Source: Azolla caroliniana (taxonomy: Eukaryota; Plantae; Polypodiophyta). From it: 64,000 bases of DNA. The first letter of the stretch is position 1. Every line of letters starts with the position of its first letter. The DNA lies in contig JBHGNT010000002.1 in NCBI GenBank assembly GCA_043228905.1, forward strand, positions 10,106,001 to 10,170,000, given 5' to 3'. A program made the translations under genes and the position numbers. Shown here one piece after another: positions 12,267 through 42,019 of this stretch. A model generated the notes under the pieces. It worked only from the letters and a program-made list of their open reading frames with translations, was not told the DNA's origin and did not search any database.

Positions 12267-12985
12267 TGTCGTAGTGTATTTCGTACACTACGTGAAAAAG
12301 TAAAAATAATATAACCGATTTAATTACATATAAATAAATAAAATAAGAATATCAAAATATTTATCACGTGCATAGGGCAAGATTCAAACCCTATACCTCC
12401 ATATAGCCAAACCTCAACTTTACCATTATGCTACCTTATCTTTAGTGTTCTACAAATAGATTTAATAACTATAAGTGCTTTATTTGCGCCTACCTTTATT
12501 AAAACGCAAGCAACTAAAAAGTGCGTGAATATTTTATAGAAAAACGCAAGCAACTAAAAAGTGACTCATGCACATCTAGCGTGCATGAGCACTATATTTA
12601 GCAAATAAAAGCAAGGATTAGAAAAGCATCACATGCACATTTAGTGTGCATGAACATATTAGAAAAAAAAGCATGTAGCTATGCTTAGTCTCTCCCATCA
12701 CTATATAAGGATGGGGAGCACATTGTAGTTTTTGTTGATTATTTTTCTATAATGATCAATCAATCTAAAATATTCGTGGGATTCACGAATTTGCTAAAAT
12801 AATTCTCTCTTACTACCTAAATATTGACTAAATATACTAAACTCGTGGGATTCACGAGATTCTTATCTTATAACTCTTTATACCTATTCTTTACTAGCCT
12901 TATTTGTATTTTTCTTCCTCCTAGTCCAAAACCTCGGCGGTTCCCACCCGACTCACGCAACGATCCGGAGCCGAAAGGCACGACA
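12267..12985 (+). repeat. Solo LTR of family A inserted in D between PR and RT
   Basis: Reverse complement of 21376-22159 (diverged); TGTCGTAG...GCACGACA; TATATAA near 12703; no PBS and no clean TSD. Confidence 0.82.
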
Positions 12986-14545
12986 ATGTGATGATTGTGA
13001 AGATAGCTCAAGTCCACGACGTCCTCTATTTCGCTGATGATGTCGTTAAATGAGGCTTCTTCCATAATATGAGTCATGAACTCTTCTTCTTCTATTATGT
13101 TTTCTTCTTTCACCATCTTCTCGAAGTTTTGTATCCGATGCTTGTCCTTCTTGTGGGGTAGTACTAGTTTACATGTGCCACTAGGTGTGACACATGTTGC
13201 TTCTCCTCGCAATCCACGCACTATACTTTCTTGTGGGGACTTGCGATTGCTCGGACTATTTGTGCCCCATGCTTCAATAGTCCGCTCTAAAAATCCGGGG
13301 ATTCGCCTCCAAGACTATCTTGATTTCTTTCATGATTAGCTCGCACCGTTAGGAATTGGACCGACCTTTGGTTGTCAAGACTCTTTATTTGTGCGAAGGT
13401 TGCTCCATTATCGAACACTTTGGTCTCCATCCGAGATGATGTGATATACGGTTGTCCTAGGATGACAGGATGCGACACCGAATCTTGCACGAAGAAGTGT
13501 TGATCCATCGCTACATCCCCGATCGTGACGTTAACATTGGGACAAGCTTCGTAAAAGTCCCCCGTAGTCTTTGTTGCCGCGCGAATCTTCCATCCGTGAT
13601 TTGTATTGATTGGCCATCTTCCTTTTTTGTAGAAGTTGGTTGAAATGAGGTTGATCTCCTAGCTGTGGTCGATCAAGGTTACCACGGTCTCTTTCTTCTC
13701 CCCAATCTTCACCGGTGTCTCCGTTGTCACTCGTGCCCAATGAAGTCGAGTATAGTGGTTGTCCACCATATCTTCATTGACTTCGTCTCTTGCCATCGTT
13801 ATGGCATTCGTTTTTGCTTTTTGCGGCTTCTCTTCTTCCTCGTCCAATTGTTGTCTTTTTCTCTTTACAAGGTCCACGATCGTGTCATGGAATTCCTTCT
13901 AATGCCAAGCAATTCACTCAAGGAAAAAGTCACGTGGCTATCAAGAACACGTTCTTCGAGAATCTTCTTTAGTTCCGTCATCTACTTTATATCTGACCTT
14001 AGCTTATAGGTAGGCATAGCCCTTGTCCTCCGAGCGGGGTCTTCGACACCAATCTTCACGGGCCGAACCGTTTCTTCGACTCGTTTGCTCAACTCCGCTT
14101 TTCGGCTTGCGTCTCCTTCCTCCATTTGCAAGGGTCGACTCGTCTCTGCATCTTCTTTCTTTTTCGCGTTCCTTGTTTCATGTCTTTTTGATGGGCCTTG
14201 CTCTTCTATTCTTTTTCTCTTTTCTTCAACGAACACCTCGTGGTTGTCGCACATCACTTCCGCGAGTATAGTGTTGTCATCTACCGGATTCGACCATCCG
14301 GTTATACTTTGCACGCTTCGGTTCGCAAGCTCCACCTCATTCGATGTGACCTTCCCCATCTTCTCATACTCGAGAACGGAAGACCAAAACTTTGCTCCCA
14401 CTTTTGCAACTTCATTTTTGTCTTTCCGGACTCTTATTCCGGCCTTTGCAACATAGTGCATCGCATCCACATGAGTCGCCTCAGCATCTTCCATAGATTT
14501 CTTCATTCCCCCTCTTTCGAAATTCACCCATAGGGATCTTCGAGT

Positions 14546-15532
14546 TTAAGTCGAGCAAATCATGTTGTCCTCTATGTATACGATATTTTGTCGGATCGCC
14601 TCTCGAAGGCTCGCGCAATCCCTTCTCATGTGGTCCATGCTATCGCACCACACGCATCTAAAGGGTTCTTTTCCTTTGGGGCCCCGAAAATTCATGTTTG
14701 CTAGCGTCACATTCTCGAACTTCTTCGCTAGCTCTTCGATGATGTCGTCATCAATCTTCTTTTCTTTCGGACTGCTTTGTTTGGGCGGCTCAACTACTTT
14801 CGGTTGTCTTGTTTTCTCTGCAACAATCGATTCCGCCAAGTCGGTGTCATCAACCCACTGACAACGCTTGTCGAGCCTATTGCATGCTCGCTTTACCGCA
14901 ACCCAGTCTGCCACAAGCCCGTTCGCTTGGGTATCATCTTCGAGAAGAGTCCCCAATTCTTGTCTATCCTTCATGTCCACAGCTTTCAAGAAGTACAAAG
15001 TCTTGTCCTCTTCAAGCAGCACTTGGTCCGTGTTGGGGAGACGACTAAACATCTGGTCGAATTCGTCGTACACCCTCGAGGCGCGCATCTTCTTATTCTT
15101 CTTTTCTATCCACTTCATCAAGGGATGTCGAGTCATCCTTGTTGAATCTTCAGTCACGAACTCTGCTAATATCGCTTTCTCAAACTCAGACCATGTTATC
15201 TTACCTTCTTGAAGTTCGATGACGCGTCTTTGGATGTTGCTAGCGACCACCCTCTTGAAACTCGTGATTTGCCGTGCTTCAGACACGTCTCTTTGATTCA
15301 TCTCCCTTTTGCATGCGTCAAGGAACTTCGTAACGTTCCTTCCATCAAATTGACCCTCGAGCTCTATGACACGGTCAACGGCCTTCTCTACGCTCGCATC
15401 GTTGTCTCGAGATCTCATCATTTGTTCAACGATTATCATCATCCTTTCGAACTCTCCCACTTGGTTGCTTGAGGATGCCATCTCCAAGTATTGGTTGATC
15501 CTCGATTTGATCCTTCCTGCTACATCATTCAC
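14546..15532 (-). CDS. Gag of gypsy D with CCHC zinc knuckle
   Basis: FDGRNVTKFL capsid-type motif; CVWCDSMDHMRRDC; starts next to the PBS. Confidence 0.82.
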   Translation of the reverse strand: MNDVAGRIKSRINQYLEMASSSNQVGEFERMMIIVEQMMRSRDNDASVEKAVDRVIELEGQFDGRNVTKFLDACKREMNQRDVSEARQITSFKRVVASNIQRRVIELQEGKITWSEFEKAILAEFVTEDSTRMTRHPLMKWIEKKNKKMRASRVYDEFDQMFSRLPNTDQVLLEEDKTLYFLKAVDMKDRQELGTLLEDDTQANGLVADWVAVKRACNRLDKRCQWVDDTDLAESIVAEKTRQPKVVEPPKQSSPKEKKIDDDIIEELAKKFENVTLANMNFRGPKGKEPFRCVWCDSMDHMRRDCASLREAIRQNIVYIEDNMICST

Positions 15533-15545
15533 GTCGGGTTCACCA
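15528..15545 (-). promoter_or_regulatory. Primer-binding site of D, complementary to tRNA-Trp 3' end
   Basis: Minus strand TGGTGAACCCGACGTGAA, 8 nt inside the LTR; matches plant cytosolic tRNA-Trp 3' end (TTCACGTCGGGTTCACCA) as recalled. Confidence 0.85.
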
Positions 15546-16870
15546 CTTAATTATGTCGTGAAGATCCGTCACTACACGCGGATCGTGAGGCGGAACCGCC
15601 GGGGTTCTGGACCGGAAGGACTCGAAGTTGGCACTAGCTTTAGCGAGAAAGGATTTAAGATAGATTGAAAGAGAGAGAAATTGAGATTAAACGCTTGACT
15701 TTAGATTGACGGAGATTGAAATGGAGAGAGAGATTAAGATTGAACTTTTAACTTTTAGGTTTAAGAATCAAGATATATCATCAATTGGATTACAAGTCTC
15801 TTATTTGATCATCCAAAAATTTTACCTTTCCTTTCATCTTTTTCCTCCCCTCTTTTATAGATGCCCTCATGCATTTGAGGGTACAAGACATGCATAAAAT
15901 GCATGTTTGCCATTTGGTGCTCATGTATTACATGTGGTGCATGATAACCACGTCACTCATTTAAGGTCTCATGTATGAGAATTTATATGTAAATCTATAA
16001 TGACAAAAATATTATTTTATGAAAATATCTTGGCTTAGTGGTAAGCCTATAGACCCTCAACTTGGAGGTTCAAGGTTCTAATCTACACTTGCACTCCTTG
16101 TGTATATGTATATATTTATTTATTTATTTATATATCTATCCGGCCGCCGGATGCCGGTTATCGCCGTCTCACCGGCTCCGTCGCCGATCCAGGTTTGGTT
16201 GGCCAAAACCTTTGCAAGTATCCAGGTCATACCCATTAATCCAATAGCTTACTTCAAGTCACCTTGAACTCTCTATGCTCCACACATAGACACAAAGATA
16301 ATAGCTTTTGCTCTACCTTATATATGGTGAGATCCTTATTTCCTGTCTATGTGGGATATCTCATAATTTTATTTTTCTCTTTGTCTTTGCAAACTTCCTA
16401 CCCACATAAGTTGACACTGACATGTCTGTTTCTTATGTAGTAAAGTGCATCCGAAAGCTCTTCAAGACCTCCATCCTTTTGTAGTTTTATGTGATTTTCA
16501 CACCATTGTCGAAAATCTTCACGACAACGTGAAATAACCTTTGTATGTGGGATATCTACTTTTCTAACACTTATGATGTGTTACTATAATGGTAATGCTA
16601 CAAATTATTAACATGGAGGTATAAGTTTGAATCTTGCCCTATGGATGTAATATATATTTTAATATTTTCTTCTATTTCTTCATATTTATTGAATCAGGTA
16701 CTCCATACATTTTTCACGTAGTGTACGAAATACATTGCAACATTCGCCCCCTCCGAACCCGCACATCCTCCAGTATCTACCGAAGTTGTTGGAGCTCGCT
16801 ATTCTCCTGTATGTGTAGTACCCTCAGTTTCTCCCATTGTGTCGACTTTGTCTCTCCATTTTTTGCACAT

Positions 16871-19800
16871 CTATTCTTTCCACCCGAACCATTGTCGCCA
16901 TCCAATCCACCATATTCTTCGTTCACTCTTTGCATTGCCATGACCAGTTGTCATGCCTCTTTGTGCTCCTCTTGAGCATAACCCTTCATGTATCATGCAT
17001 GTGCCACCTTCGTTCCAACCGTCTCCTTGGTCAAGGCACTCTGCACTTCGTCCACCTTCGTTGTACAATCTCGCATTAGAGTTTACGTTCTTCACGTTAG
17101 AGCCCTCCTTCTTTGTTGAGATCTCATCGTTAGTAACACCCTTCAAATCCACTTGGCCCTTGTCGTCCATGGTAGTGCGCCTACTTGGCCTCTTCCTTGT
17201 CTTCATCAACCTCGACTTCTTTCCGAATCAGTCTCGTCTGATCGGCTTTCGGTTGGATCGGCTTTCGTTTGGATTTATATTCGACTGAATCGGACTGGGG
17301 TGATCGGTTTTGACCAAGTCATCCCCCTTCTGGTTTGACCGATCAGTTTTCGTCCGAGTTTCCTTCCGTTTCCTCGTGTGCACCGGCCTCAACCAGTTCG
17401 ACTTCCGGCTTCTTTTTGGATCGGTCTCGTCTGATCGGTTTCCGGCTAGAACGATTTCTGTCCGGGTCGGGCTTGACCGATCGGATTTCGGCCGAATCCA
17501 CTTCCGCATGGATTGGCTTTCGTTTTAGCCGGAATTCCGGCGTGATCATCTTCCATCTGAGCCCACTTCCGAATTTACGTTCCTTGCTACCACCTACCGT
17601 CTCTCCTGTCTCACGTTCGTTCTCGGACACAACCGCCGAAGTCTCTAGAATAATTGGGCAAGAATCCTCGATATTACCGTCCTCTATCGTTTCGCCCATA
17701 GCCACCTTCTCGACTATCTCTCCGTCGTATGCATCACCTTCGACCTTCGTTTTCTCTCCGCCACCTTCCGTCTCTTCGGTCTCACGTTGCTTATCGAACA
17801 CAACCGCCGAAGTCTTTGGCATTAGTGGTGGGAAAGTCTTGACACGACCATTTGCCATTGACTCGTCCATAGCCACCTCTAATTCGATTTCATCTTTCAT
17901 GGCTACCTCAATCACGTCCGCCTCACGCTCTTTATCTCCCTCGATCATGCAAACATTGATTATGCTTACCCCTTCTTCACTTGATGTTTCAAACACTTGT
18001 GTCCCGAAGCCTTCTTCCACCCTTGAAGTGGTGTTCGCCACTCTCAAGTCATCGGCCTTATGCTTGGCCGTGATTCTTTCACAAGACAAGAGGATGTCTT
18101 GTTCCACAACCTCTCCCATGGTACCATTGTATCATATTTTGGCCTTCATATCGGCCACATCGTTCTTCCTCAATCGAACATCCCTTATGGGCCATGTTGT
18201 TGCCGACAAGATTCTCGTCTTCCTCTTATCTTGTCTTCATCATACTCTTTCGACTTCGGCCCAATCCTCGGTGATGCCATTTGTACCATCATCATTTTCA
18301 AGTTCGATCTTGATGGCCATCCTTTCCCTTCGATCGATTGATCTTACAAACATTCAGACTTTATCCATCCCCACCAATCGTTGTTCCTGCTCCGAGAGTT
18401 GAGCAAAATGATACTTGAACTCTAGGAATGTTTGTGTCGTGCTTTGGTGGATCTTCGCTAGTGCCACCCACTGGTCAAATTCAGGTCTGTTGTCATGTCA
18501 TGATTCGAACTCTTGACCTATTGTATTTAATGGATATGTTTTAACCAATACATCCAATACATAACCATGTTTAAGGTAGGTTATCTATTCTAGATATGTT
18601 TTAACCTTACCAGATTATTGTAGATTATGTATTCTACATGTTGCCCCATGCAAAGACTCATTTTCATGTGCAAGCTTCTAGAATGTTCTAGCTTCTGGAG
18701 CTTTCTGGAATGTTATCTCCCCCTAGGGCATCACGATGGATCCAAGGAAAATAAAGAAAATTCAAGAATGGGCCACTCCAAAACAAGTAAAGGATGTCCA
18801 GTTGTTCCTTGGTTTCGCAAATTTCTATCGGCGATTTATCAAGGGGTTCTTCGTCATAGTCCAACCCTTGATTGAGCTTACTCGTAAAGGGATCTCGTTT
18901 CAATGGACTCCATCTACTCAACACACCTTTGAACTACTCAAGGAAGTTTTTACCCGGGCTCCAGTCCTCCTTCACGTCGACCCTACTAAGCCTCTGACTT
19001 TGCCATTGGTGCCATCTTATCCCAACCCGATGATGATGGCATCCTACATCCAATGGCGTACTACTCCGAAAAATTCACAGATCCAAAAATCAATTATCCC
19101 ATCTATGACAAGGAACTCGCGACTATAGTGGCAGCTTTCACGGAGTGGAGACCTTACTTGGTTGGGGCGCAACATCGGGTTTAGGTATTAACTTGGTTGC
19201 TTAAACCAGATCAATTCCAGCTCTTTGCCACATGCATGCTCCATGATGACTCTTTGCATGAGGAGATAGCCAAAGCACTTCCCACCGACAAATTCGCCAA
19301 CGCAATTCAGGAAGGTCTTATTGATCCGTCTGAATCCAAGACCAAGGAAGTCCGTGACCGCTTCAGATTTGAGGGGGGATGGCTTTATCGAGACCAACCC
19401 TTATATGTTCCGGAGGGCCGATGTCGAACTCAAGTTCTCCAAAAGTGTCATGATGACCCCTTGGCTGGTCATTTTGGCTTTACAAAGATACTCGAATTAA
19501 TCTCACGATATTGGTGGCCTCAACCATGGAAGTTCGTCAAGGAATTGATCAAGACATTTGATACTTGTGCTAAATCCAAAGTTGTCCACCATAGGCCATA
19601 TGGCTTGCTCCAACCACTTCCCATTCCCAAATGGCCTTGGGCATCAATTTCCATGGATTTCATCACTAACTTGCCTCTTGTCCACAGATATGACACAATG
19701 CTCATCATGGTAGATCGGTTTACAAAGATGGCTCATTTTGGCCCTTGTGCAAAGACTTTTTCACCAGAAGCAACAATCGATCTATTTTTAAAGAATGTGG

Positions 19801-21353
19801 TGCGGCTTCATGGGGTCCTAGATGATATCACCTTAGATCGTGGACCCCAATTTGTCTCTCATTTTTGGCGGCGGCTCCTTCAAACATTGGATGCAATAGT
19901 GAATTTGTCTTCATCCTATCATCCTCAAACCGATGGCCAAACGGATTAGCTACCAGCAAGATGATTGGTTGACCTCCTACCCTTGGCAGAGTTCACATAT
20001 AATAATACGCTACATGGTTCAACTGGGGTCACCCCATTTTTCGCCAACTATGGCTTTCATCCTCGCTGATCGACATCGTTCCGCTACACCCGCCTTTGCA
20101 GTTGGTGATCAAGTTTGGTTCTTATGTCGCCATGTCGATACTACTCGGCCTTGCAAAAAGTTGGATTACAAGAAGTTGGGGCCTTTCTGCATCATTGAGT
20201 GTGTCAATCCCGTCACTTTCCGACTAGAACTTCCTCCACATTTCCGGATTCATAATGCCTTCCATGCCTCTCTTGTCAAACCTTATCATCCATCCACTAT
20301 TCTTGGAAGACACTCTCCACCTCCACCTCCAATTGAGCTTTCCACAGGTGAGGAGTATGAGGTGGACAAGATTCTGGACTCTCGTTGGCATCGATGACAA
20401 CTTCAATATTTAGTCCTATGGAAAGGGTATCCCATTTCAGACGCAACTTGGGAACCAACCCAACACTTGGAGAATACACCAGATGTTGTTCATGTATTTC
20501 ATCACCGATATCCACAAAAACAGGGGAGGCATCTTCTGAGGCGGCCTTAGCAGGGGGATAATGTCATGGACATGACAATAGTCATGTCATGATTCGAACT
20601 CATTTGACCTACTGTATTTAATCGATGTGTTTTAACCAATACATCCAATACATAATCATGTTACTTTACTACATTATTGTAGATTATCTATTCTACAAGT
20701 AGGATTTTAGAAGCTTCCAAAAAGCTCCAGAAGCTAGAACATTCTAGAAGCTTGTACATGAAAATGAGTCTTTGCATGGGGTTACATTTAGAGCCCATAG
20801 ACATGTATAAATACAGGGGTTCACCTTGGCCTTAGTCAAGGTGAACAACACCAGTTACGGAATCATAATTCAATTCTTGTTCTCTTGACTACTTTCTCTC
20901 TCTCTTTCTTATTATCTTGTTTATGATCTCTCTCTCATTCTCTTAGTATTGAGCTTCGTCTACTTGTCTGTGACAACGTCGATGTTTTGCCTTTGGTCTC
21001 TCGTAATCATATGCTTCCAATATAGCTTTGAAGGACATCCACATCGAGTTTTGTTGTTGTATCTTGTGGATGCTCTCTTACAACTCATCCGAGACGACTC
21101 AATTGAAGGATATGACTTGTAGTCACATCGCATCATCGCATCTCCACATCACATCGCATCATCTCCACCTTGTAGTCACATAAATAGCATGACACATCCT
21201 TTCCGTCATATTGCCTGTTTCTTTGCACAAGCTGCTTTACTGCCGTCGCGATCCCCAACATCGCGCCTTGTTCTTGTAGCATCCGCTCGAACATCATCAT
21301 CATCATGTTCATCGCCTCTTCTGATTCTCCATCTCCTTACCGCCCCGCCCGTC
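16871..21353 (-). pseudogene. Decayed gag of element A with acidic, repetitive C-terminal extension; split by G
   Basis: Manual translation: LQVISFN*VV...WMSFKAILEAY (~21000-21125) and FDQWV...DKV*MFVRSIDRRER...NGITEDWAEVER (~18245-18488) align with D gag; E/K-rich ORF 17343-18119 with ~170-bp internal duplication. Confidence 0.7.
18491..20975 (+). mobile_element. Element G: deleted Tcn1-like chromovirus (partial 5' LTR, RH, INT, chromodomain, PPT, 3' LTR 20562-20975)
   Basis: FLGFANFYRRFI, HDDPLAGHFG, ISMDFIT, YHPQTDGQ, EYEVDKILDSR...YLVLWKGY..SDATWEP; PPT AGGGGGATAA before TGTCA; LTR homology 18491-18640 with 20581-20700. Confidence 0.88.
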
Positions 21354-21371
21354 TTCACGTCGGGTTCACCA
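21354..21371 (-). promoter_or_regulatory. Primer-binding site of A (tRNA-Trp), identical to that of D
   Basis: TTCACGTCGGGTTCACCA on +, 4 nt from the LTR start at 21376. Confidence 0.85.
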
Positions 21372-23434
21372 AATGTGTCATGCCTTTCTGCGCCAAACTG
21401 TTGCGTGAGTCAGGTGGGAACCGTTGGGGTTTTGGACTAGGAGGAGGAGAATTCTAAAATAGATAGGAATGTGAATAGATAGCTTGTAAGAAAGAGATAA
21501 AAATTCGTGAATCCCACGAATATAATGAATAGCTTGACTTAATAATTTAAAATCATTGTAATAAATTGAAATAGTTTAGAATTGATTAGAGTAGATTGAG
21601 AAAAGAGATCAAAACTTGTGAATCCCACAAGTATTACATTAATCAATATTTAGAATGTAATAAAAAAACCCCAAGAATCAAGCATCTCAATACATCTTTC
21701 TCTTCCCTTCATATAGTGACGGAAGAGGCGAAGTATATCTTACCACATGGAAATCATCATGCTTTTTCTAAAGTGTTCATGCACACTAGATGTGTATGAA
21801 TAACTTTTCCTATTATGCTTTTTCTTCTAATAATAATGTTCATGCATGTGAGATGTGCATGAATAGCTTTTTCGATCATGCATTTTCTTCTAACTAAAGT
21901 TTTATGCACTCTACGTGTAAATGTACCTTTTCCTAAAAAATATATGTGAGATAACCTTTGTATGTGGGATATCTACTATTTTAATACTTGTGTTGTTTTA
22001 GTATAACAGTAAAGCTACACATTATTAAGATGGAGGTACATTTTTTAATCTTGCCCTATGCATGTAATATATATTTTAATATTATCTTTTATTTCCTCAT
22101 ATTTATTGAATCGGGCACTCCATACATTTTTCACGTAGTGTACGAAATGCACTACGACAATTTTTCCTTTTTCTCTCCCTTTAGATTTCAAGGTCTTTGG
22201 CGTCTTCGATGGTCCGACCATATCATTCGTGCACTATACAACAATAATGATCAACTACTACAACTTAAAGTTTCCCTTGTTTATATACTACAACAACTTT
22301 CTGGCTATTTACAAGTATAGCCCACAAGGAGCATATTTGGACTATCTACAAATATAGTCTCCCGATTTGGAAATCGATTTCAGCTCATCCCATCTAGAGG
22401 GACCTGGTTTTCCCAACAGAATGTCGTAGTATACTTTGTATACTACAAGAAATATATACGGAGTACTTGATTAACTAAATATAAAGAAATAGGAGAAACC
22501 ACTAAAATAATTATGTTACATGCATAGGGCAAGATTTGAACCATGTACCTCTATGTTAATAATTTCAAGCCTTAACATTATGAGTATTAAAGTTATATAA
22601 AAGTTTATCCCTTGTAAATATTCTAGATAAGCATGATAGAAAAAGTTATCCATGCATACACACTCGAGTTAAATGAAAAAGTATGATAGAAAAAGCTAAT
22701 CATGGACATGTTGTGTGCATGAACACTTGAGTTAAAGGAAAAACATGATAGAAAAAGCTAATCATGGACATGTAGTGTGCATGAACACTTGAGTTAGAAA
22801 AAGCCATGATGCTTGCATGTGGTAAACGTAGACTCTCCCATCACTATATAAGGATGGCGAAGCAAATTGTAAGGGGTTGTCAATTTTTGGGTTTTCTAAA
22901 TATTGATTGAATACATTATATACGTGTGTTTCACGATGTTCTTCTATCTCTCTTCCCATCTATTGAAAGATTTGGATTGATTCTTGAATTCTTAATAATA
23001 ATTATTCTAATTCATTATACTTGTGAAATTGTTGAGAGACAAGCTCAACATCGGTCGGATCGGCTGAAGAAGCCGAGGACCGGATCGGTTGGGACCGATC
23101 GGTTAGGCCGAGTGCGTAAACCAGGAGGCAGTTAGGAAAGATATTCCGTGAGGAATATATTTGGGAGTTAGTGTAGGAGCTCTTAAAGAGCATTGAAGTA
23201 TGGTCATTACTTTGGTCAGTACTTCGAGGACTTGTATAAAAGTGTTCATGGAACACACATATGTATAGAGTAGTGAATCGAGATCTTTTGTTGAATATAG
23301 TTCTTGTGTTTTTTCTCTCTCTCTCTCTCTCTGTCTCTCCCGCATATATTGCGTAAGCTCAAGCTCTCCATTAAACCTGAGTCTTCTTCCTTCTGTTCGG
23401 TCTTCATACTTGCTTCTACACGTTACTTTTTACA

Positions 23435-23446
23435 TGGTATCAGAGC
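23435..23446 (+). promoter_or_regulatory. PBS of E (tRNA-iMet)
   Basis: TGGTATCAGAGC immediately after the 5' LTR. Confidence 0.95.
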
Positions 23447-23506
23447 GTGAGGGTTGAGAACCTCTCTACAGCCGACATAGCTTGACGAAGAAGAACAAGA
23501 AGAACG

Positions 23507-26500: not shown

Positions 26501-28169
26501 TGCGCCGGTCGCAAAAATGACGACCGTCCGTGTTTTTCTCGCAGTAGCTGCGGTGAAGGGGTGGCACTTACATCAGATAGATGTAAAGAATGCGTTCCTG
26601 CAAGGTGAGCTTGAGGAACAGGTGTACATGGTACAACCCCCTGGATTTTACTCTGGAACGAATTCCTCGGCAGTATGCCGATTGAAGAAGTCCCTTTACG
26701 GACTAAAGCAAGCCCCGAGTGCCTGGAATGCGAAGATCACGCAACAACTACGTCGGATGGGCTTCGTCACGTCAAAATCGGACTCTTCCCTATTCATCCG
26801 GAAAGGTCGACTCGGACCGGTTAGTATTTTACTATATGTTGGTGACTTGGTCATCACCGGTGCCGACCTACGTGAAATCGACCGCGTGAAGCTCCAGCTT
26901 GCGGCATTGTTCGACATGAAGGATCTAGGGGACCTTCATTACTTCCTCGGGATCAAAGTGATCCGTACCTACGTGCTGAGTATGCTCTTCAAATTCGGGA
27001 TGGCCGACTGTAAGTCAGTCTCGACTCCTCTGGACAGAACCGTCAAGCTTCGTCCCGATACGGGAACGGTATGCGACCCGACGAGGTTCTGACAAATTGT
27101 CGGAAGCCTCATATACTTGAACATCACCCGACCCGACCTCAGTTATCCGGTCGGAGTGATCAGTTAGTTCATGGCGCGACCTACCGAGGAGCACCTTCAG
27201 TGTGCACAACGCATACTTTGGTATGTCAACGACACTAAGGACCGGGGACTGCTATATTGGACCGGTGCAGCCACGCAGTTAGTTGGCTACACCGATGTTG
27301 ATTGGGCTGGCAACGCCGCCGATCGCCGATCCACGTCCGGATACGCGTTCTCCCTCGGGAGTGCCCCGATGGCGTGGAGCAGTAAGAAGCAGCCGACAGT
27401 TGCACTGTCGAGCACCGAAGCTGAGTACCGAGGACCGGCTGTCGCGACATGCGAGGCCATATGGTTGAAGCGACTACTTAAGGACCTGCAAGAGGAGGTG
27501 TCAGATACGACGACGATCTACTGCGACAACCTCAGCAGCATCCAGCTCGCGAAAAACCCTGTTTTCCACGCACGGACCAAGCACATTGAGGTGCACTACC
27601 ATTTTGTTTGTGAGCGTGTCCTTTCTAGTGAAGTCGAACTTCAGTACGTTCCGACGGATCGGCAGACTGCCGACATCTTCACTAAGCCCCTTGGTCTGGA
27701 CAAGTTGCGGCAATTCTCTGGTGCGCTCGGATTGCGTCACCTCGACGTGCCAAACTTGAGGGGGAGAACAGTCCCGAACGACCAAGCAAAGCAGCAGGAA
27801 AGGAGCGGAGGCCGCGACACCGAGTCGGTTGACTCGGTTGTTGACTCGGTTGTCGAGTTAGACTTCGGATCGGCTGAAGAAGCCGAGGGCGGAGCCGCGG
27901 AAAAGTCCGAAAGTGGACATAAGGGGAGTAGCCGAAGGAGAGAGCCTAAGCCAACCAGGCATGGGGAAGATGACGCCACCAAGGGCGAGAAGACCGAATA
28001 CGAGTTGGAGACAACCAACTCGGACGGGAGCGAAAACCGATCGGAGGTAGCAGAGTCGGTTCAGATGTTTGATTCAGACACGCTGAATCAACCGAGGCCC
28101 AAGTGGAAGAAAAGGCAGCAGAAGAAGCGTCAACACCGCAACAACAGAAGAACTAATGAGGGCCACATC
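23507..28169 (+). pseudogene. Disrupted copia gag-pol of E (gag, CCHC knuckle, PR, GAG-pre-integrase, INT, RT, RH)
   Basis: CWYCGKKGHRESEC, WYVDSGASNHM, LWHKRIGH...CEAC, HSDVWGP, KARLVAKG, YVGD (mutated YVDD), TADIFTK; multiple stops and frameshifts. Confidence 0.93.
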
Positions 28170-28552
28170 TGTCAGAACCAAGGATAAAAGATAGAGTGAT
28201 GGAAGAAGGATAGAGAAGAATGGATGTATAAGATAGAGAAAGAAAGAGAATGGATACAAGATATGTAATGAGAGCTAAAGACTGGTGTTGATTCGAATTG
28301 ATTTGAGAATACATGTATGCGCTTATTTATAGGTTCCTATAGAATAGCTTAGAGATTTCTAGAATGTTCTAGACCTAGAATGCTCTAGGACATTCTAGAA
28401 CATTCTAGAATAATCTAGAGTTTTTACAATAATCAATGTAATACAAGAAGTAGCTTTTATTGTTTCATATAACAATAAGCTATCTTAATGGTTGAGGTTT
28501 TCAAGTATGAATTACAAGGTTCGAGGTTCAAGTCCGGGTGACGCCATAATGG

Positions 28553-31500
28553 TCATGTGTTCATGACACTATCCCTCCTTCGAGAACGCCGAGTGGAAGT
28601 CGGCGTTAACATTGTTGGGCCGGGCTTGTTTGGATAGTGACGATGGAAGTCGTTGACCAGAGCTTCAACATTACAAACGTTATCGATGGGTTCCCAAGTG
28701 CGATCACTCGGAGGATAACCAAGCCAATCAACTAGATAATAAAGCTTATTGCGCGCAATCTTAGAATCGAGAATAGCAGCTACCTCGTATTCGGGGCCGT
28801 CCACAAGTTGTACAGAAGGCGGTGGTGGCACGACACGATCAGGAATTAAAGAGGTGTGGCAAGGTTCCAAAAGAGAGCTATGAAAGACAGGGTGAAGCCG
28901 CATATGTGCAGGAAGGTTAAGACGAAATGTTGCATCATTAATCTGCGCCGTGATGACAAAAGGACCTAAGCGTTGATAGTCAAGCTTAGCACACGGTCGG
29001 GTAGTCTTGATGTGACGACGAAGCAACCATACACGGTCACCAACCTTAAACGGAGACTTAAGACGATGTCGATCGGCATTGGTCTTATGGTGTGCTTGCG
29101 CTTTCTGAAGATGTGACGATAACTCGAACTGGATTTGTTGTAGTCGGTGGAGGTGATGCGCCGCACTAGGGTTTCGTGACACCTCGGGAAGATCCAGTAT
29201 ACACCATCGAGGGTGGTTGCCGGTGTAGGCAAAGAAAGGTGTAACTTTGGTAGAAGAGTGGACCGTGTTGTTGTATGCAAACTCAGCAAGATGTAAAATT
29301 TTACTCCAATCATCTTGTTGATAACTAATGAAACATCAAAGATATTGCTCGAGCGTTTGATTTGTGCGCTCTGTTTGTCCGTCAGTTTGTGGATGATAAG
29401 CCGAAGAGAGGTTGCAAGAGATTTTGAGGCCTGCCCATAGGTGCTTCCAAAAGTGTGAGATAAATTGAGGACCTCGATCGCTAATAATATCATTCGGGAG
29501 ACCATGATGGCGAAACACTTCACACATAATGAGATCTGCAGTTTCTTCACTATTGATGATCTTTACACAGGGTACAAAATGTGCCATCTTGGTGAACTGA
29601 TCCACTACTGTTAAAATAGTATCAAAGCCTTTGGAAGGTGGCAGATCCGTAATGAAATCCATAGAAATAGACTGCCATGGCTTGTTGGGAGGGGGTAATG
29701 GTTGTAGTAAGCCATAAGGGTGATGCCGGGGTATTTTGGCGCGACAGCAGGTGTCACAAGTGCGAACATAATCTTCGACAAATTTTTGCAAGTGAGGCCA
29801 CCAAAACGAACGTTTCACCAGCTCAATGGTCTTGGAAATACCAAAATGTCCAGCCATGGGGGCATCATGACAATGTTCCAACAATTGAAGTCGGGGTGAT
29901 CCGTCGGGGACGTAAAGGAGATTCTTGTAGAAGAGTAAACCATCTTGCCACTTGAAGTCCTTATAATGTTGAGATGACCCTGGCAATGTGGAGCAAGATG
30001 GACGACTTGAACCACAGTGGGCTAAGACATCCTTAGCAAAATCATCCGAATGAAGTTGTTGCCGAATAGTGTCAAGAAGGGTAGAATCAAGTGGTGTGGC
30101 ATAAATTGTTGTTACCTGTAGCTTTGATGGCCCGAGGAGAGTTTGCTTTTGATTGTCAAAGGCCGGATCTCCAGGTCGAAGTGCTAGATACGAACGCCGA
30201 GACAGAGCATCTGCTTTCCCTTGTTGTTTTCCGGGGCGAAAAATGATCTTGAAATCGAAATGCGTTAGAAATTGGGCCCACCGAGCTTGTCGTCTATTTA
30301 ATACTCGAGCTGTTTGAAAATATGTGAGATTTTTGTGATCACTATAAATGATAATTTGATGAGGTGATCCTTCTAGAAAATGACGCCATTGCTCAAATGA
30401 GTCGACCACAGCTAGTAACTCCTTGTCATGCACCTCATAGTTTATCTCCGAAACAGTAAACTTTCTCGAGTGAAACGCGACTGGATGTATCTACCCGTCC
30501 TCGCCTGGTTGCGATAGGATACTCCCCAATGCAAAGTCTGATGCATCCGCCTCAATAGTAAATGGCTTTTCAGGATCAATATGTGCTAGGATGGGTGCTG
30601 ATGTGAATGCCTCTTTTAGCTGCGTAAAAGCCTTGTCCGCTTCGATACTCCAAAAAAATGCTTGATTTTTCTTGGTGAGTTGAGTAAGGGGCAACACAAT
30701 GCTTGAATAATTATGTATGAATTTGCGATAGAAGTTCGCAAATCCGAGGAAACACTGGACATCCCGAACTGAGCATGGGGGTTTCCATTCCAATATTGTT
30801 TGGACTTTTGCCGGGTCCATGAAAACACCTTGGGAGCAAATAGTGTATCCCAAAAATTCGACTTGTTTGCAATCAAAACTGCATTTCTCAAGTTTGGCGT
30901 AAAGACCATACTTCCTTAGGCGTTCAAGTACTTGCCACACATGTATATCATGCTCCCCCTGTGTTTTAGAGTAAATCAATAGATCATCTAGGTAGATGAT
31001 TAGAAAAATATCCAAGAAATCCCGGAAGATGTCATTTGCCATATGTTGGAATACGGCAGGTGCATTTGTGAGCCCGAAAGGCATGACTGTATACTCGAAA
31101 TGACCATACCGAGTACGAAATGCTGTTTTCCACTCATCTCCTGGCCGAATTCGAACAAGATTATATGCACCCCTTAGATCAATTTTGGTAAAATGCTTTG
31201 CCCCACCAATGCGTTCTAAGAGATTGGAGATTAAAGGTAAAGCATACCTATTCCTTATGGTGACTTTATTTAAGCCTTGATAGTCCACGACCAAACGAAG
31301 GGAGCTGTCCTTTTTCTTCACAAAAAAGATAGGAGCACCAGCTGGAGACTTTGAATGTCGAATAAACCCATGTGCAAGATTTTCCTCGATGTATTCTCGA
31401 AGAACCTCAAGCTCAGTCGGTGATAAATTGTAAATCGGCCCCACGGAGGCTCTTTTCCTGGTTGGAGATCAATAGGACAGTCGTACGACCGATGCTTTGG

Positions 31501-32181
31501 AAGAACACTAGCTTTGACTTTGTCAAAAACATCAGCATAGTCTTGATATTTTTTGGGAATTTGGATGTCTGAATTCCCTTGAATGACACTAGAAGGTGTC
31601 ACTGATACTACAAATAAGAAAAGGTCCTCCTTGCCTCCCACTTGGTGCAATTGTTGCAATGTGATGGCTAAAATTTGATGAGAAGGATATGGTGCATCGG
31701 TAGAACTATATACTTTGGGAGGATAATCCCGAGTTCGATCCTTGACAATGATATTTTCTGCTAAAGGGCACCTAATTTCTCGCTTCCTCCAATCGATTCT
31801 AGGGTTATGTAGCTCGAACCATGGCAAACCGAGGACAATTGGATGCTCAGGACTACGGATTATGTTAAAGGAAACTACACATCCTAAATCACCCAAGAGT
31901 ATGTGTATTGGCTCAGACTCTTCAAATATCTTCCCGGAAGCTATGGGGCGTCCATCAATCACTACTACGGAAACTGGACAAGGAAGTGTATGCAAGGATA
32001 TTTGGTGTTTTTGGGCAGAATCTCTATCCATGAAACAAGAATTGACTCCAGTATCTAAGAGGGCTTGGACTTGAAGTTGACAACTGGGTGTCCTAACTTG
32101 TACTAGGGCTGAGAAGACTCTACTAACATGCTTGGAAGAAATGGAACCCACACTAGGTTGTACATATCTAGGGTTGTCCAA
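28553..32181 (-). pseudogene. Pol of F: PR, RT, RH, INT, chromodomain; frameshift near 31444, stops at 30491 and 29336
   Basis: ALLDTG, KIDLRGAY, MPFGL, YLDD, EADASD, DKELLA, ISMDFI, GPF, EYEVAAILDSK...YLVDWLGY...TWEP. Confidence 0.93.
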
Positions 32182-32207
32182 CCAAATGGCTCTTATTTTG
32201 GCCGGAC

Positions 32208-33359
32208 TTATTCGTTTGACTCCTCTTCTAATTGGCTTAGGACTTCAAATTTATTGGACAAGGGTGGATTATTCATAATATTAGATTCACTAACTACTTC
32301 TAAAATGTTGGACTCATTTTTATTGTCATAGTGAATTTGATTTACCTGACGTCTCGGCCTACGGGAGCAATGAATGGCTATATGTCCTGGACCTCCACAA
32401 TATAAGCACAGATGGTTTGCTCGACGACGTTGCTTCTCTTCGTCTGACAACGGTCCTCGTCGTTGAGTCATATCGATCTCCATGGGTGTAGGACTATCCA
32501 TTGGGACTGGACTACGTGTTTGCCTTGGAGTTGGAGCAGGGCTATACATTTGCCTTGGGGATGATTGTGCCGTTACTGATGCATAAGTTGGTGTGAATCT
32601 AGATCTTGTTATTTGTTGTTGTCGCTCACATCAACGCTCAAAAAGACGATTATCACACCGTATTGCTCGACTAATAGCTTCTGTAAGTGACCTTGGATCC
32701 TCGGGGAAGGTAAGAAGTAAGTCTTTGACATCACTACGAAGGCCTGAACGGAATTGCTCCATTAGGGCTTGTTCATCCCAAGGAATATCACTTGCGATGA
32801 GACGGAAATTGGCAGCATATGTTGAAGCTGGTTGATCACCTTGACGAAGTGTACGAATCTTGTTGATAGCTGTTCTCGCCCCATCAGTATCTCCGAAACA
32901 AGCCTTAAATTCCTTGAAATTATTCAGTAGAGGAGAATTGGTCTCTAGCAATGGAGCAAACCACGACAACGCTATGCCTGTCAATAAAGTGCCCACTAGC
33001 CCGACTCGTGATGCATCTGTTGGATAACGTGCGGGATGCATTTGAATCACCAACCGTACTTGATTCAAAAAACCTCGGAAATGCGCCCTCGACCCATCAA
33101 TTTTAGCTGGGAGGCTAATTTTGGTCTCCTTGATAAGTCCCTGACCTTCAACCCTTTGTTGTTGTAACACAACGATTGTCGACTCTAACTGTTGCACTCG
33201 TCGCGTGAACTCCTCTTGTTGTTGTTGCTTCTCTATAGTAACCTTTTGTAGATCCCCAAGTAGACGTTGATTCTCTACTTCAAGAGATGCGAACTTGGAT
33301 TTAAGGTTCTCCATTTCTGCAACAAGGGTGAGATATTCTTCTGAGTTAATGGCAGCCAT
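32208..33359 (-). pseudogene. Gag of F (one premature stop at 32631)
   Basis: MAAINSEE...TGIALSW...LRQG...FRSGL; knuckle CLYCGGPGHIAIHC. Confidence 0.88.
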
Positions 33360-34482
33360 GGTTTCAGGATGGTTACAAAGGAGGATAAGAGAGAGAGAGA
33401 GAGAGAGAATTCGAATCAAACTGTCAGAACCAAGGATAAAAGATAGAGTGATGGAAGAAGGATAGAGAAGAATGGATGTATAAGATAGAGAAAGAAAGAG
33501 AATGGATACAAGATATGTAATGAGAGCTAAAGACTGGTGTTGATTCGAATTGATTTGAGAATACATGTATGCGCTTATTTATAGGTTCCTATAGAATAGC
33601 TTAGAGATTTCTAGAATGTTCTAGACCTAGAATGCTCTAGGACATTCTAGAACATTCTAGAATAATCTAGAGTTTTTACAATAATCAATGTAATACAAGA
33701 AGTAGCTTTTATTGTTTCATATAACAATAAGCTATCTTAATGGTTGAGGTTTTCAAGTATGAATTACAAGGTTCGAGGTTCAAGTCCGGGTGACGCCATA
33801 ATGGTCATGTGTTCATGACAACATCAGCAGACAAGCCGACCGGAAGGGTTGAAGCGCACGGAGTTGAACAGGTCGTGGAGCGCGAGCGAGGCGTGAAGCC
33901 AGGAGGAACCGGAGCTGTGAGCTCGAGGATCCCGAAGAGCCTCGAGTTGAGCTTGAGGGGGAGTGTTGAGAGACAAGCTCAACATCGGCCGGATCGGCTG
34001 AAGAAGCCGAGGACCGGATTGGTTGGGACCGATCGGTTTGGCCGAGTGCGTAAACCGGGAGGCCGTTAGGAAAGATATTCCGTGAGGAATATATTTGGGA
34101 GTTAGTGTAGGAGCTCTTAAAGAGCATTGAAGTACGGTCAGTCCTTCGAGGACTTGTATAAAAGTGTTCATGGAACACACATATGTATAGAGTAGTGAAT
34201 CGAGATCTTTTGTTGAATATAGTTCTTGTGTTTTCTCTCTCTCACTCTCTCTGTCTCTCCCGCGTATACTGTGTAAGCTCAAGCTCTGCATTAAACCTGA
34301 GTCTTCTTCCTTCTGTTCGGTCTTCATACTTGCTTCCGCACGTTACTTTTTACAGAAATTCACAAAATTCCTACCTTCCTCTTTCATATTCTTATTAGCC
34401 TTAAACTTCTCCTCCTCCTAGTTGAAAACGTCGGTTGTTCCCACCCGACTCATGCAATGATCTGGCGCTGAAAGGCACGACA

Positions 34483-35070
34483 TTGGTCATCATATTTTGA
34501 ACGATCGTCATCATGCAACTGATTCCGATTTTCCAAAGAGTTATTTTTAGGATGAATTTGCCGAACCGGTGCGTCTGTTATATTGAGTAGATTATACTCA
34601 CACTGCTCGATTGAATGAGCTTTGGAATGGCAAATCGTACAATAAGTGCGTAAACTATACTCTATTGTCGAATGCCCTGTGTTGAGGCAAGTAGTACACT
34701 GAACAACTTGCAGAAATGTGAGCTCTTCTAATGTAGGCAACTACCGGTGTAACGTCGACATGTTCATACTTGTGTTATTGTTTGTCTAATTTATTGCTAG
34801 AGCCTTATTGACCACTTGCTCCAGTGATTTATTCTGGAAATCAAACACTGGTACGGTTGTTCAAGGAGGTTCACGTATAGCCTCCAGGAAAATATCCATC
34901 AATTCCTCTTCTGGAATTGATTGCGAAATCGGAAATTGTAAATTTGGAGATCGGATCACAAATTGTGATACCATTTCATGTGACTCCTGATAGGCCGCAT
35001 AGAACTGACCTATTAGATCCTTCCATGGGATCTGCCAATTAAACAATTGTGTGAATTTCGCAGCTAATTC
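34483..35070 (-). pseudogene. Gag N-terminal remnant of a J/H/I-group gypsy
   Basis: LEELTFLQVVQCTTCLNTGHS...CTICHSKAHSIEQC and QIPWKDLIGQFY...VSQFVIR match I gag (59872-61005). Confidence 0.85.
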
Positions 35071-35716: not shown

Positions 35717-36180
35717 TGTTTATCCTGGGCTGGACTAGCCCAAACATAGGGTGTCTATTCGGAACACGTTTCCAACGGGGTGGTTTGGATATGGATGATT
35801 ATCTGGTATTGATCCTGCAATTTATATGTAACACCCCAACTACTACCGGATTGCCTTCTGGACCACTTAATTACACGCGTATGATTTGTATTTACAACAC
35901 AGACAAACACTACACAAAGGAGACAATAAGATTAACAACAATTCATGCTTAACTTGTATTACTTCCATCTCTTCATACATTCATCCAGATCCTTTTATAG
36001 GAATCCCATATAGATTACAAAATGGTGCCTTATCGGCTACTAATCGGTGCGGATTCGGATCGGTACAACTATCTAGATCTGTCCGTTACTATAAAATTAC
36101 TAACTACTATTTATATTATTAATACGATCGGACTCTTCCCTGTCCACACTTGTCCTCCAGATCATACTCTTAGGCCAACA
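35717..36180 (-). repeat. Probable 3' LTR of element K (H/I-related), followed by an extra-ORF remnant at ~36200-36760
   Basis: TGTT...AACA ends; 464 bp, like H/I LTRs; TATAAAA on minus near 35995; same TGGCAC...TGGG motif 2 nt after AACA. No partner LTR seen. Confidence 0.55.
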
Positions 36181-40712: not shown

Positions 40713-40718
40713 ACACCG

Positions 40719-41525: not shown

Positions 41526-42019
41526 TGTAGTGTCAATAAGAAAAAAAGATAAAATAAATGGGTTTGAGACTTAGCCGAGTTTGTGTGTATGTCGCAGTCA
41601 CATCGGCATTTTGCACGCGATGAGCATGCTAAAAGAACAAGGATGCGCCGCCAAGAAAAGAAATACGGCACTCGGCAACGTCAAGAACAAGAAGGAGAAG
41701 AACATGGAAACGGCAATGGCGACTATGACGGACGATGACGAATGGCCGCAGGTTGTCCAACACACAGACGGCAACTGACGGCAATTGATGACAGCGTGGC
41801 AATAAACGGCGACAGACGTCAACAGATGGTGATGGACGTCAGAGGCGGCAATGCGGAAACAAACAACAACACAATAGGGGGGGGAGAGAGAGAGTGCAAC
41901 ACGGTAGCAAGTGGTGACAAATGTCGTAGACGGCAACGACGGCAGCGTGGCAACAACAGCACGACCGTTGCAGAGAGGCAACAACAGCACGACCGTTGCA
42001 GAGAGAGAAATTAAAAGGA

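What the first reader, a model, noticed from the sequence alone, without database searches (positions are those of the whole stretch)
12380..33798. Antisense tRNA-like A-box/B-box cassettes in the U3 of four different LTR families
Seen: four LTR families with no other visible similarity each carry an A-box-like and a B-box-like motif 43-45 nt apart (start to start), the spacing of an intronless tRNA gene. A: TAGCATAATGG...GGTTTGAATCT (minus, 12433/12390; decayed copies near 16585-16635, 22000-22052, 22530-22585). D: TGGCTTAGTGG...GGTTCTAATCT (+, 16031/16074). G: TGGATGTATTGG...AGTTCGAATCA (minus, 18556/18511; also ~20590-20650). F: TATCTTAATGG...GGTTCAAGTCC...GACGCCA (+, 28481/28525; copy 33733-33798). 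In every case the cassette lies toward the U3 end, antisense to the element and pointing outward. Known: Cassandra TRIMs carry 5S Pol III promoters in their LTRs, and TFIIIC-bound B-boxes can act as chromatin barriers. Inference: a shared or convergent Pol III/TFIIIC module used as an insulator, an antisense promoter or an anti-silencing device. I know of no description of this across LTR families.
Basis: partly seen in the sequence, partly recalled or inferred. Interest (0 to 1): 0.85.

Follow-up and report, generated by a model that had tools for sequence, protein, structure and literature searches.

The report
Retrotransposons keep a backwards tRNA promoter
Two distantly related groups of jumping genes, likely from a moss or similar plant, carry a back-to-front tRNA-gene promoter in their terminal repeats that stays conserved while the DNA around it changes, and it likely recruits RNA polymerase III factors to shield the element's own promoter from silencing, a role not yet tested.

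Summary
Real, and wider than the window. A box model trained only on E. coli tRNAs ranks the D, F (twice) and A cassettes first to fourth in the window (4 sites at 20 bits or more; shuffles give 0.15). G is weak and A2 has lost its cassette. The four families are two lineages: Tcn1-like chromoviruses (F, G) and Phygy-like non-chromoviruses (A, D), 27% identical in RT. All 16 close relatives of F with enough sequence carry the cassette antisense, 70-104 nt inside the LTR, at 43-44 nt spacing; 0 of 56 more distant relatives do. Across 12 families the boxes are conserved (0.56-0.82 identity) while spacer and flanks are at background (0.32-0.41). The cloverleaf and a fixed terminator are not kept, so selection acts on DNA promoter boxes. 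Function is inferred, not shown: most likely a TFIIIC/TFIIIB-bound barrier beside the Pol II promoter. Closest known: Helenus TRIMs (non-autonomous) and foamy-virus U3 Pol III cassettes. No RNA run was available. The scan noted similar cassettes in fungal LTRs, read there as a landing pad and as a passenger.

The parts
28481..28535 (+). F cassette in the 3' LTR: A box 28481-28492, AGGT block 28517-28520, B box 28525-28535; antisense to the element, A box 88 nt from the LTR 5' end
33733..33787 (+). F cassette in the 5' LTR, identical copy, pointing into flanking DNA
28170..33820 (-). Element F, Tcn1-like chromovirus: identical LTRs 28170-28568 and 33422-33820, TSD ACATC, gag-PR-RT-RH-INT-chromodomain (with stops and frameshifts), self-priming-type PBS
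16031..16084 (+). D cassette: A box 16031-16042, AGGT 16066-16069, B box 16074-16084; best score in the window
15554..16526 (-). D 5' LTR (973 nt), followed by a tRNA-type PBS, a putative gag ORF (14546-15550, no Pfam hit) and pol to about 11100; Phygy-like non-chromovirus; inserted at ACGT inside LTR A3
12380..12433 (-). A1 cassette (A box from 12433, B box 12390-12380), A box 167 nt from the LTR 5' end
12267..12985 (+). A1 solo LTR inside D's pol, 4-bp flanks ACGT/ATGT (NCGN-type TSD with one CpG change)
   Evidence: NCGN preference of Phygy from PMC6317226
16582..16634 (+). A3 cassette, decayed, in the 3' LTR of a non-coding A-family element (LTR pieces 16527-16742 and 5090-5595)
22000..22052 (+). 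A2 cassette remnant with the B box lost, in 5' LTR 21376-22159 (PBS at about 21354-21371)
22532..22586 (-). A4 cassette: B box good, A box damaged; LTR 22422-23019 plus about 34355-34485, split by a copia element
20590..20647 (-). G cassette in the 3' LTR (20562 to about 20975) right after G's integrase and PPT; weak A box
18501..18556 (-). G cassette in a truncated second LTR copy (about 18490-18720)
28330..28410 (-). F Pol II promoter region: nGAAnnTTCn heat-shock-element-like array (28357-28410) and TATA-like box about 148 nt from the A box, facing away from the cassette
   Evidence: the HSE label is recalled

Best explanation
These LTRs carry a conserved, outward-facing tRNA-gene-type promoter (A box, AGGT block, B box, 43-44 nt spacing) that likely binds TFIIIC and loads TFIIIB, and would act as a portable chromatin barrier protecting the element's own Pol II promoter. 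Shown: the sequence, its antisense orientation in U3, its box-specific conservation across families of two deep gypsy lineages, and the loss of the cloverleaf. Inferred: (1) origin by capture of a tRNA or SINE head, at least twice or once with exchange between lineages; (2) TFIIIC binding; (3) TFIIIB loading on the AT-rich tract just inside the LTR, which places a nucleosome-free Pol III complex between the insertion-site flank and the Pol II enhancer and TATA about 110-270 nt away; (4) a benefit in silent, nested chromatin, where these elements sit. Any Pol III RNA would be a by-product that runs away from the 5' promoter. About 0.85 that the boxes are a selected TFIIIC site; about 0.45 for the barrier or anti-silencing role in particular.
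For: Independent PWM ranks D, F, F, A1 first to fourth; shuffles give 0.15 sites at 20 bits or more. Of 80 metagenome loci related to F's integrase tail, 72 had at least 150 nt downstream. 15 pass a fixed rule (total at least 10 bits, B at least 5) and L019 falls just under it at the same place; these 16 group with F (SH-aLRT 93 in the longer-alignment tree, which held 9 of the 16). 0 of the other 56 pass. Among 12 family representatives, mean column identity is A box 0.56, B box 0.73 and AGGTC 0.82, against spacer 0.36-0.41 and flanks 0.32-0.38. AGGTC was not part of the search model, and the best background 5-column block reaches 0.48. Spacing is 43-44 in 16 of 16 loci while the distance from LTR start to B box varies from 16 to 49 nt. 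The B-box CpG survives in 8 of 12 representatives, and the other 4 show CA or TG, against 11 CpG in 1459 dinucleotides outside. A model trained only on Tcn1 cassettes finds the held-out Phygy-like copies D 32.6, A1 31.0, A4 21.7 and A3 19.5 bits (null 0.05 per window at 20 or more). Contigs of 4 runs laid on D peak in depth over the cassette, with loose ends at the box edges; variants at 6% or more hit 12 of 23 spacer positions, 2 of 12 in the A box and 0 of 4 in AGGT. The upstream tract is 59-94% AT (70% or more in 23 of 24 rows) against 62-66% for whole LTRs, matching the TFIIIB site of plant tRNA genes (PMC13578239, passages). Stems are not kept and the first T4 lies anywhere from -3 to more than 500 nt or is absent, so no fixed RNA product is conserved. 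tDNA barriers are established in yeasts (PMC2040200, abstract; PMC9540200, passages).
Against: No binding, chromatin or RNA data exist for these sites. No homologs of animal or yeast barrier elements are reported to work in plants (PMC9540200, passages). The S. pombe tDNA barrier is orientation-independent (PMC2040200, abstract), so a barrier does not by itself explain why every LTR copy is antisense; a cost of sense Pol III transcription must be assumed. Several window copies have damaged boxes: A1 and A3 have T at the normally invariant C56, D has T57, A2 has lost its B box, and G's A box is poor. The same cassette in the 3' LTR lies in the path of Pol II making genomic RNA. 56 related loci lack it, as do the copia, J, K and H LTRs, so it is not generally needed. 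All 16 positive loci come from one series of public assemblies. The B box is under-reported because alignments clip there. Strict 43-44 spacing is tighter than TFIIIC is recalled to need and is unexplained.
Confidence: 0.45

Rival explanations
1. The cassette is a working antisense Pol III promoter whose RNA matters. From the 3' LTR it would transcribe across the PPT and the integrase tail and so limit or tune the element (copy-number control or small RNAs), in the way foamy-virus U3 Pol III units make regulatory RNAs.
For: The orientation is fixed and antisense in all LTR copies examined. Both boxes plus an AT-rich upstream tract are kept, as transcription would need. Precedent: Pol III miRNA genes in foamy-virus U3 (PMC3993851, passages).
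Against: No conserved hairpin, cloverleaf or terminator position. Transcribed downstream sequence is at background identity, 0.32. Antisense RNA should invite silencing (inference).
Confidence: 0.18
2. It is a neutral remnant of an old SINE or tRNA insertion, carried along as a passenger.
For: tRNA-like units also occur in other contexts in these contigs (L026: two in tandem and one inverted). Old window copies decay (A2, A3, A4).
Against: Spacer and flanks have drifted to background while boxes, AGGT, spacing and the hypermutable CpG persist across 12 families. Variation within the D family avoids the boxes.
Confidence: 0.1
3. The cassette is a landing pad. TFIIIB or TFIIIC on the LTR attracts integrases that target Pol III genes, so elements nest into each other, away from genes.
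For: D is inserted 48 nt upstream of the notional tRNA +1 of the A3 cassette, inside the 40-54 nt window of Dictyostelium TRE5 (PMC5911963, passages).
Against: It is one event. The other insertions mapped in the window (A1, F, G, the copia elements) are not near a cassette start; the copia in A4 is about 440 nt away. D's target is an NCGN site, the known Phygy preference (PMC6317226). TRE5 is a non-LTR element. The joints and loose ends shown show no cluster of element ends upstream of the boxes (tables were truncated).
Confidence: 0.1
4. The conserved words are Pol II transcription-factor sites that only resemble tRNA boxes; for example AGGTCA read on the element strand is TGACCT, a W-box-like core (label recalled).
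For: AGGTC is the best-conserved block (0.82), although it is not a textbook TFIIIC box. The sites lie about 110-270 nt upstream of a TATA-like box.
Against: F, D and A keep AGGT but not TGACC. The A and B boxes match tRNA consensus on an independent model and keep exact tRNA spacing in two lineages.
Confidence: 0.1

Closest known systems
Helenus TRIMs (TRIMp3; Kojima 2024, PMC10886601; parts 1-4 of 6, the figure and table section and searched passages read; supplements not read)
   Same: tRNA-derived sequence in the LTRs with conservation at boxes A and B and mostly no functional tRNA; origin proposed by SINE insertion; one family is known from Selaginella.
   Different: Helenus is short (311-1263 bp), non-coding, and its promoter is proposed to make the template RNA. 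Here F, G and D are multi-kb elements with pol genes and their own TATA-like Pol II promoter, and the cassette is antisense. The paper argues that autonomous partners must use Pol II and kept only TRIMs under 1000 bp, while noting that 'not a few' Repbase LTRs have tRNA-like parts.
Cassandra and Ajax TRIMs (PMC10886601; PMC10946416, passages)
   Same: A Pol III internal promoter is conserved inside LTRs.
   Different: 5S type-1 promoter, non-autonomous, and for Cassandra the promoter drives the element's own transcript.
Foamy-virus U3 Pol III miRNA cassettes (PMC3993851, passages)
   Same: A- and B-box Pol III units in the U3 of an autonomous LTR retroelement, next to a Pol II promoter.
   Different: Those make defined hairpin miRNAs with terminators; here no hairpin or terminator is conserved and the spacing is tRNA-exact.
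tDNA/TFIIIC chromatin barriers of yeasts and B2 SINE boundaries of mouse (PMC2040200 and PMC8136502, abstracts)
   Same: A tRNA-type promoter next to silent chromatin; B2 is a mobile boundary.
   Different: Those are host loci or SINEs with demonstrated activity. Here the module rides inside an LTR, and activity is untested; no such barrier is reported in plants (PMC9540200, passages).
Tcn1 chromoviruses and Phygy non-chromoviruses (PMC6317226, PMC2864245, passages)
   Same: F has a chromodomain, a 5-bp TSD and a self-priming-type PBS as in Tcn1; A and D have a tRNA PBS, NCGN target sites and no chromodomain among 120 relatives.
   Different: The passages read describe no tRNA-like cassette in these LTRs.

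Membership tests
Helenus / TRIMp3 | tRNA-derived sequence in the LTR, conserved at boxes A and B | tested here: met
Helenus / TRIMp3 | Short (about 1.3 kb or less), non-coding TRIM | tested here: not met
   F is 5.65 kb with gag-pol-chromodomain; D and G carry pol domains; even the non-coding A2-A3 element has about 2 kb of internal sequence and 780-nt LTRs
Helenus / TRIMp3 | Pol III promoter placed to make the element's template RNA | tested here: not met
   The cassette is antisense and points out of the element in all LTR copies; the sense orientation of Helenus is implied by its proposed function, not stated in the text I read
tRNA gene | Cloverleaf pairing | tested here: not met
   Pairs formed in 15 cassettes against 19 real tRNAs: acceptor 39/105 vs 133/133, anticodon 32/75 vs 84/95, outer T stem 18/45 vs 55/57, D stem 37/60 vs 68/76 (slid controls 23-35/60); ARAGORN and Rfam negative
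Pol III type-2 promoter | A box and B box at tRNA spacing with an AT-rich upstream tract | tested here: met
   weak in G, A2, A3 and A4
Pol III type-2 promoter | TFIIIC/TFIIIB binding and Pol III transcription | not testable with these tools
   no ChIP data; no RNA holder listed
Pol III transcription unit | oligo-T terminator at a conserved place | tested here: not met
   first T4 at -3 to 530 nt from the B-box end, absent within 600 nt in 3 of 24 rows
tRNA-derived SINE | Free-standing copies with body, tail and own TSDs | tested here: inconclusive
   No tail or TSD was noticed around the cassettes (not searched systematically); tRNA-like units lie outside the Tcn1 LTR in L026; no genome to search
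tDNA chromatin barrier | Blocks the spread of silent chromatin, dependent on the B box | not testable with these tools
   needs reporter and ChIP assays
Tcn1 chromovirus (F, G) | Chromodomain after integrase and self-priming PBS | tested here: met
   F: PF00385; the sequence after the 5' LTR is complementary to the region about 35 nt after the TATA-like box. G: integrase tail 54% identical to F; its PBS is not preserved. No tree with named reference elements was built.
Phygy non-chromovirus (A, D) | RT phylogeny with Phygy; NCGN target; tRNA PBS; no chromodomain | tested here: inconclusive
   NCGN-type flanks and PBS seen; 0 of 120 relatives match F's chromodomain and RT is 27% identical to F; named relatives are from Riccia; no reference Phygy sequence was available for a tree

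The most novel reading that the evidence does not exclude
Autonomous LTR retrotransposons of bryophytes carry their own tDNA-type chromatin barrier in U3, gained at least twice or swapped between chromovirus and non-chromovirus lineages, and use host TFIIIC/TFIIIB to keep their Pol II promoter active inside heterochromatin. This would be a TFIIIC barrier in plants, where none is reported, and an anti-silencing device written in DNA rather than protein.
Probability: 0.35. Interest if true: 0.85.

Novelty: new variant of a known kind. Interest (0 to 1): 0.62.

Why it matters
Pol III promoters inside LTRs are described for tiny non-autonomous elements, where they make the element's RNA, and for foamy viruses, where they make miRNAs. 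A selected, back-to-front tRNA promoter in full-length coding elements of two deep lineages needs another job. If it is a barrier, it answers in part how heterochromatin-dwelling retrotransposons stay active. It would also give plant biology a candidate TFIIIC barrier, which a recent review says is lacking, and scatter thousands of TFIIIC sites across a bryophyte genome. The module is about 55 nt long and can be tested with one point mutation in a moss reporter.

Tried and rejected
No own genome is held, so there was no genome-wide copy set. ARAGORN and Rfam on the window and on the F cassette alone: no tRNA. No RNA holder listed: no evidence either way on expression. Viral contigs: PBS pattern 0 hits; F integrase 1 weak locus; alignment query 0 of 85 candidates. 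Prokaryote genome contigs: D gag 0 of 35 candidates; integrase alignment gave 16 distant loci (33-62% identity), none with a convincing cassette (two scored 14-15 bits, near chance). No flanked relatives of the A/D lineage could be fetched, so that lineage rests on 5 window LTRs and contigs of 5 runs. tRNA-mimic RNA: rejected, stems not kept. Cassette as RT primer: rejected for F, which has a self-priming-type PBS, and for A/D, which have a tRNA PBS. CAA initiator: present in 6 of 15 cassettes, not counted as support. Separate origin of G's cassette: G groups apart from the F clade, but one clade is not rejected (AU p = 0.43). In one search L019 was mis-registered by my script; it was corrected. 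Literature: nine searches found no description of an antisense tRNA-type promoter in autonomous plant LTRs. Subscription papers, Repbase entries and the Helenus supplements were not seen and could hold one.

Full report
Setting. The window is a nest of LTR retrotransposons with a LINE and a satellite. No whole genome is held. The host is likely a bryophyte (inference): named relatives of D's RT are from Riccia at about 51-65% identity, and Tcn1 elements are reported only from mosses and club-mosses among plants (PMC6317226, passages).

Anatomy. F (28170-33820, minus) has identical LTRs, TSD ACATC and gag-PR-RT-RH-INT-chromodomain. It has no tRNA PBS; the bases after its 5' LTR are complementary to the region about 35 nt after its TATA-like box, which fits the self-priming reported for Tcn1 (PMC6317226). 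G (plus strand) has a PPT and 3' LTR from 20562 and an integrase tail 54% identical to F's. D's 5' LTR is 15554-16526 (minus), followed by a tRNA-type PBS (tRNA-Trp by recall), a putative gag ORF and pol. A-family LTRs are A1 12267-12985 (solo, flanks ACGT/ATGT), A2 21376-22159 (same PBS as D), A3 (split) and A4 (split). NCGN targets match Phygy (PMC6317226). D and F RTs are 27% identical, and 0 of 120 relatives of D match F's chromodomain. So the four families are two deep lineages, Tcn1-like (F, G) and Phygy-like (A, D); neither label was tested on a tree with reference elements.

Is it more than chance? I trained A- and B-box matrices on 24 E. coli tRNA genes, so the model owes nothing to the finding. 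On both strands of the window the top four sites are D (23.6 bits), F twice (22.4) and A1 (20.3); the fifth is a site inside F's pol (16.6). A3 and both G copies score 12.0, A4 8.2, and A2 is lost. In 150 shuffles the mean count at 20 bits or more is 0.15 (20 of 150 shuffles have one), and at 12 bits or more it is 5.5 against 11 real, so G, A3 and A4 are not significant alone. Six spacing windows that exclude 43-44 nt give no site at 20 bits. Ten control LTR segments reach at most 7.2 bits. ARAGORN and Rfam see no tRNA.

Relatives of F. A scan of metagenome contigs with an alignment of integrase tails kept the best 80 of 588 loci, from 13 of 64 parts of the collection. Eight had under 150 nt downstream and were set aside. 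Of 72, 15 pass a fixed rule (10 bits total, B at least 5, within 330 nt, antisense) and L019 falls just short at the same place; the other 56 fail. In about 26 of those 56 a PPT and LTR start were recognised (counted by eye), so some negatives may lack an LTR. In the 16, the A box starts 70-104 nt from the LTR 5' end with spacing 43-44, while the LTR-start-to-B-box distance ranges from 16 to 49 nt. On a 154-column tree 15 of the 16 sit in one clade with F (94/97). On a 449-column tree of 32 rows L042 joins that clade (SH-aLRT 93), G lies apart (84), and a single clade is not rejected (AU p 0.43). A further LTR end inserted in L023 has its own antisense cassette (22.6 bits). All 16 loci come from one series of assemblies, which limits their independence as hosts, though they span 55-84% protein identity to F.

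What is conserved. Among 12 family representatives (near-copies L010, L011, L017, L018, L020, L022 and G3 left out), mean column identity is 0.56 in the A box, 0.82 in the AGGTC block, 0.73 in the B box, 0.36-0.41 in the spacer and 0.32-0.38 in the flanks. AGGTC was not in the search model; the best background block of five columns reaches 0.48. The B-box CpG is kept in 8 of 12, the other 4 being deamination products, against 11 CpG in 1459 dinucleotides nearby. The stems of a cloverleaf are not kept (acceptor 39/105, anticodon 32/75, outer T stem 18/45; D stem 37/60 against 23-35/60 when slid), and the first run of four T lies anywhere from -3 to 530 nt, or is absent. Selection therefore acts on DNA words, not on a folded RNA of fixed length (inference).

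The A/D lineage. A matrix trained only on Tcn1 cassettes finds D (32.6), A1 (31.0), A4 (21.7) and A3 (19.5), with a null of 0.05 sites per window at 20 bits. Contigs from four runs of four coded organisms (293, 118, 87 and 92 laid) peak in depth over D's cassette and show many loose ends at 16023-16031 and 16077-16083, the box edges. Variants at 6% or more hit 12 of 23 spacer positions, 2 of 12 in the A box, 0 of 4 in AGGT and 0 of 11 in the B box; the last figure is unreliable because alignments clip there and the clipped letters show CA and TG forms. For A3, most family contigs are closer to the tRNA consensus than the window copy at two places (40 of 162 difference rows shown). Against this: A1 and A3 carry T at C56, A2 has lost its B box, and no flanked relatives of this lineage could be fetched.

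Mechanism. TFIIIC binds the two boxes and loads TFIIIB on an AT-rich tract within 50 nt upstream (PMC13578239, passages). Here that tract is 70% AT or more in 23 of 24 rows and lies inside the LTR, between the cassette and a TATA-like box 113-267 nt away where one was found, with heat-shock-element-like arrays between them in F and G (label recalled). I take as most likely (0.45) that the bound Pol III factors keep the U3 promoter open and block silent chromatin or read-in from the flank, as tRNA genes do in yeasts (PMC2040200, abstract; PMC9540200, passages) and B2 SINEs do in mouse (PMC8136502, abstract). Every functional step is inferred. Weak points: barriers can be orientation-independent, none is known in plants, the 3' LTR copy lies in Pol II's path, and many related elements do without the cassette. 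Rivals are a functional antisense RNA (0.18), a passenger (0.10), a landing pad (0.10; D sits 48 nt upstream of A3's notional +1, one event, within the TRE5 range in PMC5911963, passages) and look-alike Pol II factor sites (0.10).

Known and new. Helenus has tRNA-like LTR sequence with conserved boxes but is short and non-coding (PMC10886601; supplements not read); two of three defining features are not met here. Foamy viruses have Pol III miRNA units in U3 (PMC3993851, passages). Passages of the Tcn1, Phygy and Physcomitrium papers and of an rDNA-TE review do not describe this cassette. Nine searches found no report of an antisense tRNA-type promoter in autonomous plant LTRs; the library lacks most subscription papers and Repbase. 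Earlier notes of this scan describe similar cassettes in fungal LTRs; I did not test them, and look-ups by sequence, relatives and words found no note on this module in this genome.

Verdict. A real, selected Pol III type-2 promoter module, antisense in the U3 of coding LTR retrotransposons of two lineages. It is a new variant of a known kind, with function untested. Interest 0.62.

Noticed in passing
window 52581-52625, 46080-46120, about 36145-36190: LTRs K, J and H (minus strand) are preceded by a sequence that ends like a tRNA 3' end where a purine tract is expected (clearest in K); earlier notes on this genome (for example e1-10597906) describe the same feature.
   Followed up: no
window 33406-33421 and about 33540-33555: F has a self-priming-type PBS complementary to the region about 35 nt after its TATA-like box; PMC2864245 found no priming site for SM-Tcn1, while PMC6317226 predicts self-priming for Tcn1.
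   Followed up: partly
window 28357-28410 and 20710-20750: Arrays of nGAAnnTTCn (heat-shock-element-like, label recalled) in the U3 of F and G; PMC7466625 reports heat induction of one Physcomitrium gypsy family.
   Followed up: partly
window 31690-31742 (+); L011 1062 and 6386 (-): A weaker A/B-like site antisense inside F's pol (16.6 bits), also in two elements of L011; it did not pass the threshold in other relatives that cover the region.
   Followed up: partly
L026 about 250-540: Two tRNA-like units in tandem and one inverted partial unit outside the Tcn1 LTR, after a purine tract and a TG start; could be another LTR family with sense cassettes or SINE remnants.
   Followed up: no
window 16526/16527: D is inserted 48 nt upstream of the notional tRNA +1 of the A3 cassette, at an ACGT target.
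   Followed up: partly
L013, L014, L024, L026 LTR starts: In several Tcn1 relatives the block before the B box is complementary to the LTR's first bases (6-bp stem; both sides change together in L014), but not in F, G, L010, L015 or L023; seen by eye.
   Followed up: no
window 44900-45640 and 63350-64000: A 52-bp palindromic satellite flanks element J, which appears to be inserted into it.
   Followed up: no
window 37750-41570 (-): A LINE-like element with an RT domain.
   Followed up: no
window 16743-18490 and 20976-21355: The internal region between LTRs A2 and A3 has a PBS and PPT but no Pfam domain in its longest frame: a likely non-autonomous A-family element.
   Followed up: partly
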